Source: Candidatus Micrarchaeia archaeon (GTDB lineage Archaea; Micrarchaeota; Micrarchaeia; CABMEP01). From it: a stretch of DNA of 54,845 bases. Positions 36,001 to 39,000 of the stretch are shown here, piece after piece. The position numbers are program-made. Within the stretch, counting starts at the first letter, position 1; each line of letters starts with the position of its first letter. The stretch lies in contig JAVZXS010000004.1 in assembly GCA_038886535.1 (NCBI GenBank), forward strand, positions 1 through 54,845. Reading direction: 5' to 3'.

Positions 36001-39000
36001 GATAACATCTTATTTTGATCTAACGAATAAAGAAAAAAAAAGAATAATAGAATCAATTAATGTAAAATTGGAAGAGGAAATTAAACTACTTAATACGAAT
36101 ATAAGAACTTTTGAAGAAAGACTAAATGGATTGAGAGGATTTCCTTAATTAATAATTATCGTTTCTTTTGCTGAGAGTTTTGACAAAGGAAAAGTAACTA
36201 AAGATATTAAAAAATAAAAACAAATTATAAATCATCTCTTCTTCTGTGCTTTTTGAAGAATTGCCATTGCATTTCTGATTGCTAATTTTACTTCTTTTTC
36301 TGTCTTACAACCAGTACAAATTATCTTTCCATTCTTGAAGAGAAGTAATGACGATTTTGGTTCTCTAAGCTTAAGGATGGCTCCTGGAAATTGCTCAGGC
36401 TCATATTCGATATTTGGAACTTTCCTTCCAAGAGAATAAAGATCCAATTCAATTCCTAAGTTTGCAGATGCTACAATATTTTCAATCTTAAATTTAACAT
36501 CTTTCACCATTAAAAACACCCTTTAAAACCCAAATGGGGCTCAACATTTTTAAATGCTTTAAAAATATATACCTCGGAAGGTATTTAAACCTATTTAAAA
36601 AAGTAATAATGGTCATATAAAACTATAGTTTTTGGGATATGGCACATTTTTAAACTTATCCCACTATATTATATTTATTAATTCACACCTTTTGTTTAGG
36701 TAGAGTTAATTGTAACAATTTTTAAGTCAATAGAAGTGATAATATGGTTAAAGCATCTAAAGGAAGAATGAGCAGGAAAAGCAGAGTGCTTGGAAGAAAA
36801 TCGACTAAAAGAAAAGTTACTGTAGTTGATCAATTAAAAACTATTGAGATAGGAAAAAAGGTACAATTAGTTCCAAATGTTAAGTTCGAAGACTTCCCTC
36901 ATCCAAGATATGCTGGTCGTGTTGGTATAGTTAAAGGAAAACAAGGAAACGCTTATGTAGTAGAAGTAGAAGATGGAGGAGTTAAAAAGAAATTTATAGT
37001 CTCAGCTGTCCACCTAAGAGAATGTTGATCTGTAAAAAGTGATTGGAATGATAGGTAAAAAAATCCTCGATGTTAAAGAAGTAACGCTTGCTGAAGTAAA
37101 AGAAATACTAGAAATGCCTAGTGAAATAGAAATGGGATTTGAACAGGCAAAGACTTTAGAATATGCAAAAAAAATGACCAAATTAAGCAAAGAAAAGGCA
37201 GAAGAAATGATAAATGAATTAATGAGCGAAGTTACAAAACTAAATAGGGCAAAGGCAGTTAAGATTGTAGATTTAATGCCGAAGAAAAAGGAAGAAATAG
37301 ACCAAATATTCTCAAAGGAAACTTATTCTTTAACGGAAGACGAAGTTAATAAGATATTAGAAATAGTTTCAAAATACCAGAAACAATAGCTGGTGATTTT
37401 TTATGGAAGACTATGGAATTGTAATAGACTATTTACCACTAGGTAAACCAACGGATATCAAAAGAGAACCGGTTGCCTACCTAGTTGGTGAAAGGTTCTT
37501 TACGCTTCTAGAAGTTATAATAAAAAGAAACGTCTCAATTCAGCTCCATAGTAAGCTATATGTAGGAAAAGATTTGAATCAAAGAAAGGAAGTAGAAAGA
37601 ATAAAAGGAAGAGTTGAGTACTCTGAACTTACTGGGGCTGCTAAAAATGAACTGAAAACTGCAATAAAAACAATAGTTAAAAATAGAGAGAGCGATTTTA
37701 TAAATTTTATAAATAAGTGCGGACCGGTAACAATAAGACTACATCAGCTGGAACTTCTTCCAGGTATCGGAAAAAAACATCTTGAAGATATACTCAGAGA
37801 AAGAGAAATCAAACCTTTTGAAAGTTTTGATGATCTTACAAAAAGAGTGCCACATCTACTTAATCCAGTAGAAATGATAGCTGAAAGAATAATAAATGAA
37901 ATGAGTGGTAAGGAAAGGTATTATTTATTCATTAAGCCACCAATGCCGACAACAAGTGGTTTTAGAAGACACTAAGAAGATAAAAAAATTATCAAGTGAT
38001 TTTATGGAAAAAAAGAGAATTAAAAGAAATGAGATCGAGAAAGAAGAGGTTAAAAATAAAGATTCGCAGGAATCTCTTATTGATTCCTTCAAAAGTATGG
38101 TAAATTTATTTTTCGATCCTGCAAAGTCTACTGAATACACATATGAAACGAATCAAACCATAAAAAATTCGTATTTATTCATTTATTTGTCTTTTTTAGT
38201 TGTTTTAACTTTATCGTTTTTGCCTTCTCTTAACGTCTTTGGCATTATTATAGGTGCTTTAGGATTTATATTCTATGTGTTTTTCATATTGGTAGCTATT
38301 GTCGCAGGTAGTTCATTCATATGGTTATCTGCAAGAATTTTTGATGTAAAAGCAGACTTTGAAAGACAAACTAATCTTATTTTAATGTTCTCTACAGTTG
38401 CAATCATTTTGATAACAATTATAGGAATAATTAATTCTATAATTACAGAGGTTGATTTATTGAATGCGTTAGTCTTTATCTATGGAATATATGTTATATA
38501 TGGTATAATTTCAATAATCAAGCACACTAACAACATTTCATGGATAAAGGCATTAATAATAGTTTTATGGCCGATCTTAGTACTTTTAGTACTTTTAATT
38601 CCATACATCTTTCTTTATCTAGCTAAAGAAACAATAATGCCATATGGTGTTTCTTTTTAATAAAATGTAGATAAAATGTACAATAAAAGAAAACATTTTG
38701 GCCAGTATATGCTGGAGAATGAAGAGACACTGAAATACGAAGTAGATATGCTGCAACCGAAAGGAAAAGTAGTGCTAGAGATTGGCGGGGGGACTGGAAA
38801 CCTTAGCAGATTGATTGCAGAGACTGCAAAGCACCTTATTATTATCGAAAAAGACTTTAGTTTTGCAGATTCCCTTAAATTTTTATTCAAGAAAAAAAAG
38901 AATGTTACAGTCATAGAAGCTGACTTCTTAGATTTAAATGAAAAAGAGATCCTAGAAGACTCGAAACAAAAAAGGATAGATTTGATAATAAGCAATGTTC

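What a model noticed while it worked through the whole genome (the two positions that open the first line are those of the whole stretch)
36232..36510. The only TATA-binding protein is a 92-residue single-repeat (half) TBP
g00645 encodes one TBP repeat only, whereas normal archaeal and eukaryotic TBPs have two tandem repeats (about 180 aa) that form the DNA-binding saddle. It is the only strong TBP match in the six-frame translation, and the same half-size gene is the sole TBP in most Micrarchaeia genomes examined. The basal factor must act as a homodimer of identical halves, a fully symmetric saddle that leaves promoter polarity to TFB.
Evidence so far: Pfam TBP (85 positions) matches once, positions 1-84, 103 bits, in an open frame of 96 codons; the only other hit is 26 bits inside g00327. 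In 20 relatives: 16 have one single-repeat frame of 92-128 aa and nothing else, G012 has two separate single-repeat genes, only G011 and G016 have two repeats in one frame (192, 204 aa), G002 (54% complete) none. 947 public proteins of 50-161 aa match, many on contigs of 0.1-1 Mb; 32 aligned ones share 36 invariant columns. Homodimer model: ipSAE 0.68 against a best control of 0.00; this mark was reached by 20 of 30 proteins solved as pairs of one chain and 1 of 23 solved as single chains; runs agree in at least 89% of contacts, pLDDT 89; the two-fold in [...]
(Added by a program. Inside this text positions count along the whole contig: contig position 1 is position 1 of the stretch shown here. 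"Call 12" and the like, gene names such as g00115 and contig names such as C1 are that model's own, and its searches are not shown. The text may have been shortened before it was handed on; [...] marks where a part breaks off. The agent that wrote the report below was given it as the finding of a first reader that could run no searches.)

Follow-up and report, generated by a model that had tools for sequence, protein, structure and literature searches.

The report
Half-size TATA-binding protein, sole copy
This small archaeon's only TATA-binding protein is half the normal length, one repeat instead of two, so it probably works as a pair of identical halves, a living example of the form from which the universal two-repeat factor is thought to have arisen.

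Summary
Confirmed. Window 36232-36510 (-) encodes a 92-aa protein with one Pfam TBP repeat (103.8 bits); there is no room for a second repeat beside it. The only other TBP-like hit in the 88%-complete genome is a 24-26-bit domain in a 269-aa V4R protein. Two single-contig relatives also have exactly one repeat, even at E<=10, so an assembly gap is unlikely.

The gene lies at the locus (divergent from rpl21e-rpoF-DUF655) where sister families carry a two-repeat TBP. Both DNA-wedging Phe and the stirrup EYEPEQFPG are kept. A canonical TFB is present. A homodimer model passes (ipSAE 0.70, best control 0.00) with the normal inter-repeat interface; this may reflect memory of solved TBPs.

"Most Micrarchaeia" is overstated: 52 of 192 other genomes at least 90% complete have exactly one repeat, 63 have two matches (two-repeat genes where checked), and 48 of 53 genomes of family f5 have two matches (unlinked genes in all five examined).

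New: all Micrarchaeial repeats form one clade (98/96*). The repeats of their fused TBPs are 71-75% identical, against a median of 39% in canonical TBPs, and orthology to canonical N repeats is rejected (AU p=0.0008).

No paper on a sole half TBP was found. Nothing is shown biochemically.

The parts
36232..36510 (-). Single-repeat (half) TBP gene, 92 aa, stop codon included
   Evidence: ORF and translation. Pfam TBP, one repeat, 103.8 bits. E 1e-39 to solved archaeal TBPs, aligning equally well to their N and C repeats.
36517..36522 (-). Shine-Dalgarno-like AGGGTG, 6 nt upstream of the ATG at 36510
   Evidence: Sequence. The genome-wide upstream profile shows G-G-T-G-A at -10..-5. Relatives start at the same Met.
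36511..36743 (.). Divergent intergenic region shared with rpl21e; it must hold both promoters, which were not mapped
   Evidence: Several TATA-like A/T stretches are present, but no RNA data exist and the motif search was uninformative.
36744..37028 (+). Ribosomal protein L21e, conserved divergent neighbour
   Evidence: Pfam Ribosomal_L21e, 49.3 bits. It lies divergent to the TBP gene in 57 of 70 half-TBP loci and 41 of 51 fused-TBP loci.
37039..37389 (+). RNA polymerase subunit Rpo4/RpoF (Rpb4 family), conserved neighbour
   Evidence: Pfam RNA_pol_Rpb4, 44.4 bits. Synteny.
37403..37975 (+). DUF655 protein, conserved neighbour
   Evidence: Pfam DUF655, 202.9 bits. Synteny.

Best explanation
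The 92-aa protein is this organism's general TATA-binding protein. Two identical chains pair through strand S1 (residues 5-18, antiparallel, two-fold axis at residue 12) and helix H2 (residues 71-82). This rebuilds the ten-stranded saddle that normal TBPs make from two tandem repeats. Each chain supplies one pair of DNA-wedging phenylalanines (F41, F58) and one stirrup (EYEPEQFPG), so the saddle is exactly two-fold symmetric and offers TFB the same docking site on either side. Direction of transcription is then set, as in other archaea, by the TFB helix-turn-helix reading the BRE on one side of the TATA box.

Shown: gene structure, sole copy, conservation, positional orthology with two-repeat TBPs, presence of a normal TFB.

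Inferred: dimerisation, DNA binding and bending, TFB recruitment.

Evolution: the Micrarchaeial TBP repeat is one lineage. The two-repeat TBPs of sister families were built from that same repeat, tail included, so a free-standing half is the likely starting state in this class. The deep order of events is unresolved.
For: 1. One repeat only, and no room for another.

2. Sole copy. Single-contig genomes G109 and G121, and G017 (3 contigs) and G014 (6 contigs), have one match even at E<=10. 52 of 192 other genomes at least 90% complete have exactly one match, spread over 17 of 27 families.

3. Strong purifying selection: 36 invariant columns in 36 half TBPs that are 60-88% identical to this one. 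These include E10-N11-I12-V13 (S1), EYEPEQFPGAI and SLLLFKNGK.ICTG.

4. The protein aligns at E 1e-39 to solved archaeal TBPs. Scores against their N and C repeats are 68.0/69.1 bits (2z8u), 74.2/59.8 (1mp9) and 63.2/70.5 (1ais). Both Phe columns are kept. The stirrup is identical to that of the C repeat of the chain in 1ais and 1d3u; that these entries hold TFB bound at this stirrup is recalled, not from a call.

5. Same locus as real TBPs: divergent to rpl21e-rpoF-DUF655 in 57 of 70 half loci and 41 of 51 fused loci.

6. One canonical TFB is present: Zn ribbon, two cyclin repeats, C-terminal HTH.

7. Homodimer model: ipSAE 0.70 (runs 0.70, 0.71, 0.70) against a best control of 0.00. This mark was reached by 20 of 30 proteins solved as pairs of one chain and by 1 of 23 solved as single chains. 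The runs agree in at least 80% of contacts and pLDDT is at least 88. The interface is residues 3, 5-18, 64-65 and 71-82. Because two-repeat TBP structures are solved, the pass may come from memory; it shows likeness, not binding.

8. TFB-BRE sets direction in archaea (passage read in PMC7289017).
Against: - No biochemical or expression data exist. Dimerisation rests on a model that has seen TBP structures.
- 4 of 193 genomes at least 90% complete gave no TBP hit at all (G025, G171, G198, G201). TBP genes can therefore be missed or lie on unassembled DNA.
- The promoter motif search gave only a low-information A/T motif. There is thus no evidence that TATA boxes here are more symmetric.
- The order half-to-fused versus fused-to-half inside the class is not resolved by the trees.
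Confidence: 0.75

Rival explanations
1. The half TBP works as a heterodimer with another TBP-fold protein, giving an asymmetric saddle. In this genus the candidate partner is the 269-aa TBP-like plus V4R protein.
For: A second PF00352 hit (24-26 bits, N-terminal 80 residues) lies in a 269-aa protein with a C-terminal V4R domain. Family f5 shows that two different halves can coexist.
Against: It has only 8 database clusters. Single-contig G109 and G121 have no second hit even at E<=10. The invariant S1 strand fits a self-complementary interface.
Confidence: 0.08
2. A normal two-repeat TBP, or a second half, exists but is on unassembled DNA or is too divergent for the profile. The 92-aa protein would then be an accessory monopartite TBP-domain protein like those of Thermococcales or Halobacterium TbpA.
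For: The genome is 88% complete. Monopartite TBP-domain proteins beside full TBPs are documented (Brindefalk 2013, PMC3597702, passages read). 4 of 193 high-quality genomes gave no hit at all.
Against: Single-contig and few-contig relatives have exactly one match at E<=10. The half gene occupies the locus where sister families carry their two-repeat TBP. It is about 40% identical to canonical repeats with all contact motifs intact. By contrast, the Thermococcales proteins are described as strongly diverged from the TBPs of their own genomes.
Confidence: 0.05
3. The half TBP acts as a monomer, or is dispensable, and promoter recognition is carried mainly by TFB and BRE.
For: No measurement shows dimerisation. 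[quoted passage not shown]
Against: The S1 strand, which has no DNA-independent role other than pairing with its twin, is invariant (E10, N11, I12, V13, S15, A16). It forms the modelled interface. A single repeat would expose this edge strand and half a hydrophobic core; this last point rests on general knowledge of the TBP fold, not on a call.
Confidence: 0.07
4. The half gene is a truncated pseudogene or an assembly or annotation artefact.
For: NCBI often names these proteins 'hypothetical protein'.
Against: The identical 92-aa protein is on 8 contigs. 942 relatives of 50-161 aa were found. There are 36 invariant columns. The start, SD and neighbours are conserved across families.
Confidence: 0.01

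Closest known systems
Canonical archaeal TBP (solved: 2z8u, 1mp9, 1pcz, 1ais, 1d3u)
   Same: Same fold and sequence family (E 1e-39). Same Phe pair per repeat and same stirrup motif. A TFB partner is present. The modelled dimer uses the same S1/S1' and H2 contacts that join the two repeats.
   Different: One repeat of 92 aa instead of two in about 180-200 aa, so the saddle would have to be made from two chains and be exactly symmetric. The repeat is equally distant (median 40%) from canonical N and C repeats.
Monopartite TBP-domain proteins of Euryarchaea (Thermococcales group; Halobacterium TbpA), Brindefalk et al. 2013, PMC3597702
   Same: Free-standing single TBP domain of about 90-100 aa (passages read).
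   Different: Those proteins always sit beside one or more full-length TBPs. The Thermococcales ones are strongly diverged, and TbpA is reported there as not essential. Here the half is the only TBP, is close to TBP proper, and occupies the TBP locus.
Two-repeat TBPs of sister Micrarchaeial families (f4, f9, f13, f14, f16, f17, f19)
   Same: Same repeat lineage (one clade, 98/96*). Same locus next to rpl21e. 59-69% identity to the window protein.
   Different: Two repeats in one chain. The repeats are 71-75% identical to each other in the 6 examined, against a median of 39% (range 26-52) in 64 canonical short TBPs. In 22 of 50 distinct genes the linker repeats the tail motif seen at the C terminus.
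Homodimer versus fused pseudo-dimer pairs in other folds (semiSWEET/SWEET, retroviral versus pepsin-type aspartic proteases); recalled, not from a call
   Same: A half-size chain that dimerises to give the architecture that relatives encode as an internal duplication.
   Different: A different fold and function. For TBP, my searches found no report of a natural half-size form acting as the sole factor.

Membership tests
TBP (Pfam PF00352; TATA-binding protein) | TBP-fold repeat recognised above the curated threshold | tested here: met
   103.8 bits against a cut-off of 22.9, profile 1-84 of 85. E 1e-39 to solved TBPs.
TBP (Pfam PF00352; TATA-binding protein) | Two tandem repeats in one polypeptide forming the saddle | tested here: not met
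   One repeat in 92 aa, and no adjacent or other repeat in the genome. It is a member of the sequence family but not of the canonical architecture.
TBP (Pfam PF00352; TATA-binding protein) | Pair of DNA-intercalating phenylalanines in each repeat | tested here: met
   F41 and F58 align with Phe in both repeats of 2z8u, 1mp9 and 1ais and are invariant in 36 half TBPs. That these columns are the intercalating Phe is recalled knowledge.
TBP (Pfam PF00352; TATA-binding protein) | Stirrup that docks TFB/TFIIB | tested here: met
   EYEPEQFPG is identical to the C-repeat stirrup of the 1ais/1d3u chain and invariant in the family. The binding itself cannot be tested here.
TBP (Pfam PF00352; TATA-binding protein) | Binds and bends TATA DNA and nucleates the pre-initiation complex | not testable with these tools
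   Needs EMSA or FRET, a structure, and in vitro transcription.
TBP (Pfam PF00352; TATA-binding protein) | Cognate TFB encoded in the genome | tested here: met
   One 302-aa TFB with Zn ribbon, two TFIIB repeats (158.8 bits) and a C-terminal HTH.
Accessory monopartite TBP-domain proteins (Brindefalk 2013) | Coexists with a full-length TBP in the same genome | tested here: not met
   No full-length TBP in G000, nor in single-contig G109 and G121 at E<=10.
Accessory monopartite TBP-domain proteins (Brindefalk 2013) | Single TBP domain of about 90-100 aa with no other domain | tested here: met
   92 aa, one Pfam family only.
RNase HIII / DNA glycosylase TBP-like domains | TBP-like domain fused to a catalytic domain | tested here: not met
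   No other domain in 92 aa.

The most novel reading that the evidence does not exclude
In Micrarchaeia the free-standing half TBP is the starting state. From it, the origin of TBP has been replayed several times inside one class.
- Homodimer: this window, and 52 of 192 other genomes with exactly one match.
- Two unlinked, diverging paralogous halves that would form a heterodimer: family f5, where the two copies are 48-53% identical in the five genomes examined.
- Head-to-tail fusion at the same locus into new two-repeat TBPs whose repeats are still 71-75% identical. This happened at least twice: f13/f14 as one event, and f4/f9 and the database clade separately.

If so, the step from a symmetric to an asymmetric basal transcription factor can be studied in natural intermediates. 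A bolder version, at about 5-10%, is that the lineage never had a fused TBP and preserves the pre-duplication form.
Probability: 0.5. Interest if true: 0.9.

Novelty: new variant of a known kind. Interest (0 to 1): 0.8.

Why it matters
TBP is the one initiation factor shared by archaeal RNA polymerase and all three eukaryotic polymerases. Its two-repeat saddle is a textbook case of a protein thought to have arisen from a homodimer by duplication and fusion. The one paper my searches found on free-standing single TBP domains (Brindefalk 2013) describes them only beside full-length TBPs.

A lineage whose sole TBP is a half would give three things:
1. A natural, fully symmetric TBP, with which to test how much promoter polarity, TFB docking and DNA bending depend on the asymmetry of the two repeats.
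2. A graded natural series (homodimer, paired paralogues, young fusions) for reconstructing how asymmetry evolves.
3. A practical point for annotation. NCBI often names these genes 'hypothetical protein', and a check that expects a full-length TBP could score such genomes as lacking it; I did not test any such pipeline.

Tried and rejected
- RNA evidence: no RNA holder is listed for window 35300-37400. Read laying was not used, so nothing can be said on expression or transcription start sites.
- Promoter analysis. I took 519 upstream regions of heuristically called ORFs. The position profile shows an SD signal and only a faint A (-34/-33) plus T-rich (-29..-27) signal. EM motif search (6 starts, width 20) gave low-information A/T motifs of 2.8-3.7 bits in total. 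This does not show whether TATA boxes are symmetric.
- The 131-row repeat tree did not resolve canonical N from C repeats, and its bootstrap had not settled. I therefore could not place the Micrarchaeial clade on the N side, the C side or between them. The FastTree of 339 repeats put it next to a group of first repeats, but I do not rely on that.
- The deep order inside the Micrarchaeial clade is an open polytomy, so the polarity half-to-fused is argued from repeat identity and tail motifs, not from the tree.
- The tail motif was defined after seeing the data. The first, stricter pattern gave 11 of 50 distinct fused genes with the motif in both places, the looser one 22 of 50. Both patterns gave 0 of 64 canonical TBPs with the motif in both places.
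- Literature. Six full-text searches and word searches inside three Micrarchaeota genomics papers (no occurrence of TBP, TATA, TFB or 'transcription initiation') found no report of a half TBP as sole TBP. A DPANN survey only lists TBP as conserved in about 88.8% of genomes. Supplements were not opened.
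Full report
**1. The observation**

Window 36232-36510 on the minus strand is an ATG-started ORF of 92 codons.
- An SD-like AGGGTG lies 6 nt upstream of the ATG. It matches the G-G-T-G-A signal I found at -10..-5 in 519 upstream regions of this genome.
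- Pfam TBP (PF00352) matches once, residues 6-87 to profile positions 1-84 of 85, at 103.8 bits against a cut-off of 22.9.
- Downstream there are 83 bp before a convergent gene. Upstream there are 233 bp before the divergent rpl21e. No second repeat can hide next to it.
- A six-frame search of the whole assembly (1.14 Mb, 40 contigs, 88% complete) finds this gene at 103.1 bits and one further hit of 26.5 bits.
- That second hit is the N-terminal 80 residues of a 269-aa protein whose C terminus is a V4R domain. It is not a TBP.

**2. Is it really the only TBP?**

In 40 relatives:
- 25 have one strong single-repeat frame;
- 6 have two repeats in one frame;
- 5 (all family f5) have two separate single-repeat genes;
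- G034 has three;
- 3 have none (54%, 81% and 93% complete).

In all 193 genomes of the phylum at least 90% complete, G000 included (G117 and G185 are unpublished and enter only these counts):
- 189 have a match at E<=1e-5;
- 52 of the 192 others have exactly one match, in 17 of 27 families;
- 63 genomes in 8 families (f4, f16, f9, f17, f13, f14, f18, f19) have two matches. Wherever both rows are listed (18 genomes) they lie in one frame of 191-261 codons, and every listed frame of these families is 188-264 codons long. G095, the only f18 genome, is not listed;
- 48 of 53 f5 genomes have two matches;
- several f7 and f10 genomes have two to four matches.

Decisive for the assembly-gap rival: single-contig genomes G109 and G121, plus G017 (3 contigs) and G014 (6 contigs), have exactly one match even at E<=10.

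So a sole half TBP is real. It is the state of roughly a quarter of species-level genomes, not of most.

**3. Is it the working TBP?**

- *Conservation.* 36 half TBPs that are 60-88% identical to this one share 36 invariant columns. These include strand S1 (E10 N11 I12 V13 S15 A16), EYEPEQFPGAI and SLLLFKNGK.ICTG.
- *Contact motifs.* Against solved archaeal TBPs the protein scores E 1e-39. It aligns about equally to both repeats: 68.0/69.1 bits for 2z8u, 74.2/59.8 for 1mp9, 63.2/70.5 for 1ais. F41 and F58 fall on Phe in every repeat. The stirrup is identical to the C-repeat stirrup of the chain in 1ais and 1d3u. The roles of these residues, and the fact that those entries contain TFB, are recalled knowledge.
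- *Position.* The gene lies divergent to rpl21e-rpoF-DUF655. The same arrangement holds in 57 of 70 half-TBP loci, 41 of 51 fused-TBP loci and 3 of 4 mixed loci (125 loci, some genomes fetched twice). In f5 one paralogue keeps this place and the other lies elsewhere. In G034 one of three copies keeps it. The half gene is therefore the positional counterpart of the two-repeat TBP of sister families.
- *Partner.* The genome has one ordinary TFB of 302 aa, with a Zn ribbon, two cyclin repeats and a C-terminal HTH.

**4. How it most likely works**

A single repeat is half a saddle, so the simplest reading is a homodimer.

The homodimer model gave these results:
- ipSAE 0.70 (runs 0.70, 0.71, 0.70) against a best control of 0.00.
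- This mark was reached by 20 of 30 proteins solved as pairs of one chain and by 1 of 23 solved as single chains.
- The runs agree in at least 80% of contacts, and pLDDT is at least 88.
- The interface is residues 3, 5-18, 64-65, 71, 74-75, 78-79 and 82. Residue 12 touches residue 12, which means antiparallel S1-S1 pairing backed by H2.

This is the way the two repeats of a normal TBP are joined (recalled). Because such structures are solved, the pass may come from memory; it shows likeness, not binding.

A homodimer has two identical stirrups. [quoted passage not shown] 1999). A symmetric TBP is therefore compatible with the known mechanism.

I could not test whether TATA boxes here are more palindromic. 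The motif search was uninformative and no RNA run holds the locus.

**5. Evolution**

I cut all repeats out of three sets: 45 Micrarchaeial TBP genes, 142 two-repeat database TBPs, and four database entries with one matched repeat (one of them, P0138, is 182 aa long).

*Trees*
- A FastTree of 339 repeats puts all 51 Micrarchaeial repeats (39 half, 6 first, 6 second) in a clade of 54 tips with no canonical repeat inside.
- A careful tree of 131 rows separates them, together with seven database two-repeat proteins, at 90/86. For this tree I used 36 of the 45 Micrarchaeial proteins (nine near-identical ones dropped), 10 near relatives, 28 of 62 short database TBPs and 8 of 73 long ones.
- A careful tree of 54 rows (20 Micrarchaeial proteins, 14 canonical short TBPs) gives 98/96* for the 26 Micrarchaeial rows.
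- Holding the six Micrarchaeial first repeats together with the canonical first repeats is rejected (AU p=0.00076, delta lnL 44.8).
- Inside the clade, the first and second repeats of f13/f14 are sisters (97/94*). The two f5 paralogue groups plus f10 form a clade (98/97*). The rest is unresolved.

*Identities*

| Comparison | Identity |
|---|---|
| First vs second repeat, 6 Micrarchaeial fused TBPs | 71-75% |
| First vs second repeat, 64 canonical short TBPs | median 39% (range 26-52) |
| First vs second repeat, 71 long TBPs | median 33% |
| Window protein vs Micrarchaeial fused repeats | 59-69% |
| Window protein vs canonical first repeats / second repeats | median 40% / median 40% |
| f5 paralogues, a vs b | 48-53% |

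*Tail motif*

In the fused genes, the linker consists of a tail motif of the type LLKPYAK followed by a basic stretch such as KPKF. The same tail motif recurs at the C terminus. With a pattern defined after seeing this, 22 of 50 distinct fused genes carry it in both places, against 0 of 64 canonical TBPs. A stricter first pattern gave 11 of 50 and 0 of 64.

*Reading*

The two-repeat TBPs of this class were made from a complete Micrarchaeial half unit, tail included, after the split from other archaea, and probably more than once. Homogenisation of the repeats by gene conversion is the alternative and is not excluded.

Two questions stay open:
- whether the half state is ancestral to the class or arose from a young fusion;
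- whether the lineage descends from a canonical first or second repeat.

Other archaea and eukaryotes share distinct first and second repeats. A secondary reduction at the base of Micrarchaeia is therefore more parsimonious than a relic of the pre-duplication protein. This is an inference, not a test.

**6. What is known**

- Brindefalk et al. 2013 (PMC3597702; passages read) describe monopartite TBP-domain proteins in Thermococcales and TbpA in Halobacterium. These always sit beside full TBPs. The paper does not contain the words Micrarchaeota or ARMAN.
- A DPANN survey merely lists TBP as conserved in about 88.8% of genomes.
- Six full-text searches and word searches in three Micrarchaeota genome papers found nothing on a sole half TBP. 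Supplements were not read.
- Public records name these proteins either 'TATA-box-binding protein' (for example a 105-aa one of Candidatus Burarchaeum australiense) or 'hypothetical protein'.

**7. Verdict**

It is a new variant of a known kind: a member of the TBP sequence family that fails the defining two-repeat architecture and most likely restores it as a homodimer. Interest is high, because it would let the homodimer-ancestor idea for TBP, and the role of TBP asymmetry, be tested directly. All functional steps remain to be shown at the bench.

Noticed in passing
G000 contig C2, locus L002 1480-2289 (+): A 269-aa protein with an N-terminal TBP-like domain (24.1 bits, over the Pfam cut-off) and a C-terminal V4R domain (41.5 bits). 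It lies directly downstream of a 230-aa ORF that looks like a KaiC/RecA-type ATPase to me, by eye only. It could be a ligand-sensing partner or mimic of the half TBP.
   Followed up: partly
Loci L037-L046 (genomes G012, G022, G027, G032, G037, family f5): Every one of these genomes has two unlinked single-repeat TBP genes that are only 48-53% identical. One is at the rpl21e locus and one is elsewhere. 48 of 53 f5 genomes show two matches, including six single-contig genomes. This suggests an unfused heterodimeric TBP.
   Followed up: partly
L101 1125-1758 (+): A two-repeat Micrarchaeial TBP gene is interrupted by one in-frame stop inside strand S1 of the second repeat (..NIVA*ANLG..). This leaves a 131-codon frame with one complete repeat. 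It could be a nonsense mutation on the way from fused to half, a sequencing error or a recoded stop.
   Followed up: no
L007, L032, L033 (G034) and L058: Some f7 genomes carry three half-TBP genes. In G034 two copies are 98% identical to each other and 80% identical to the copy at the rpl21e locus. L058 holds two near-identical copies about 1 kb apart.
   Followed up: no
protein P0157: A 92-aa protein 96% identical to the window's TBP is filed at NCBI as a hypothetical protein of a 'Brevinematia bacterium' MAG. In one search, L103 (a two-repeat TBP) is filed under a Chloroflexota bacterium. These are probably mis-binned archaeal contigs.
   Followed up: no
Window 32087-35215 (+) and 35291-36148 (+): A 1042-aa ORF with an N-terminal hydrophobic segment and a long Lys/Glu-rich region, followed by a 285-aa Lys/Glu-rich ORF with no Pfam hit at E<=0.01. 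The 1042-aa ORF was not scanned against Pfam.
   Followed up: no
Loci L062 and L108 (one isolate, two contigs) and L090: Single-repeat TBP genes also occur in MAGs that NCBI labels Candidatus Iainarchaeum. I could not tell whether these are true Iainarchaeota or mislabelled Micrarchaeia, so the half TBP may or may not reach beyond this phylum.
   Followed up: no
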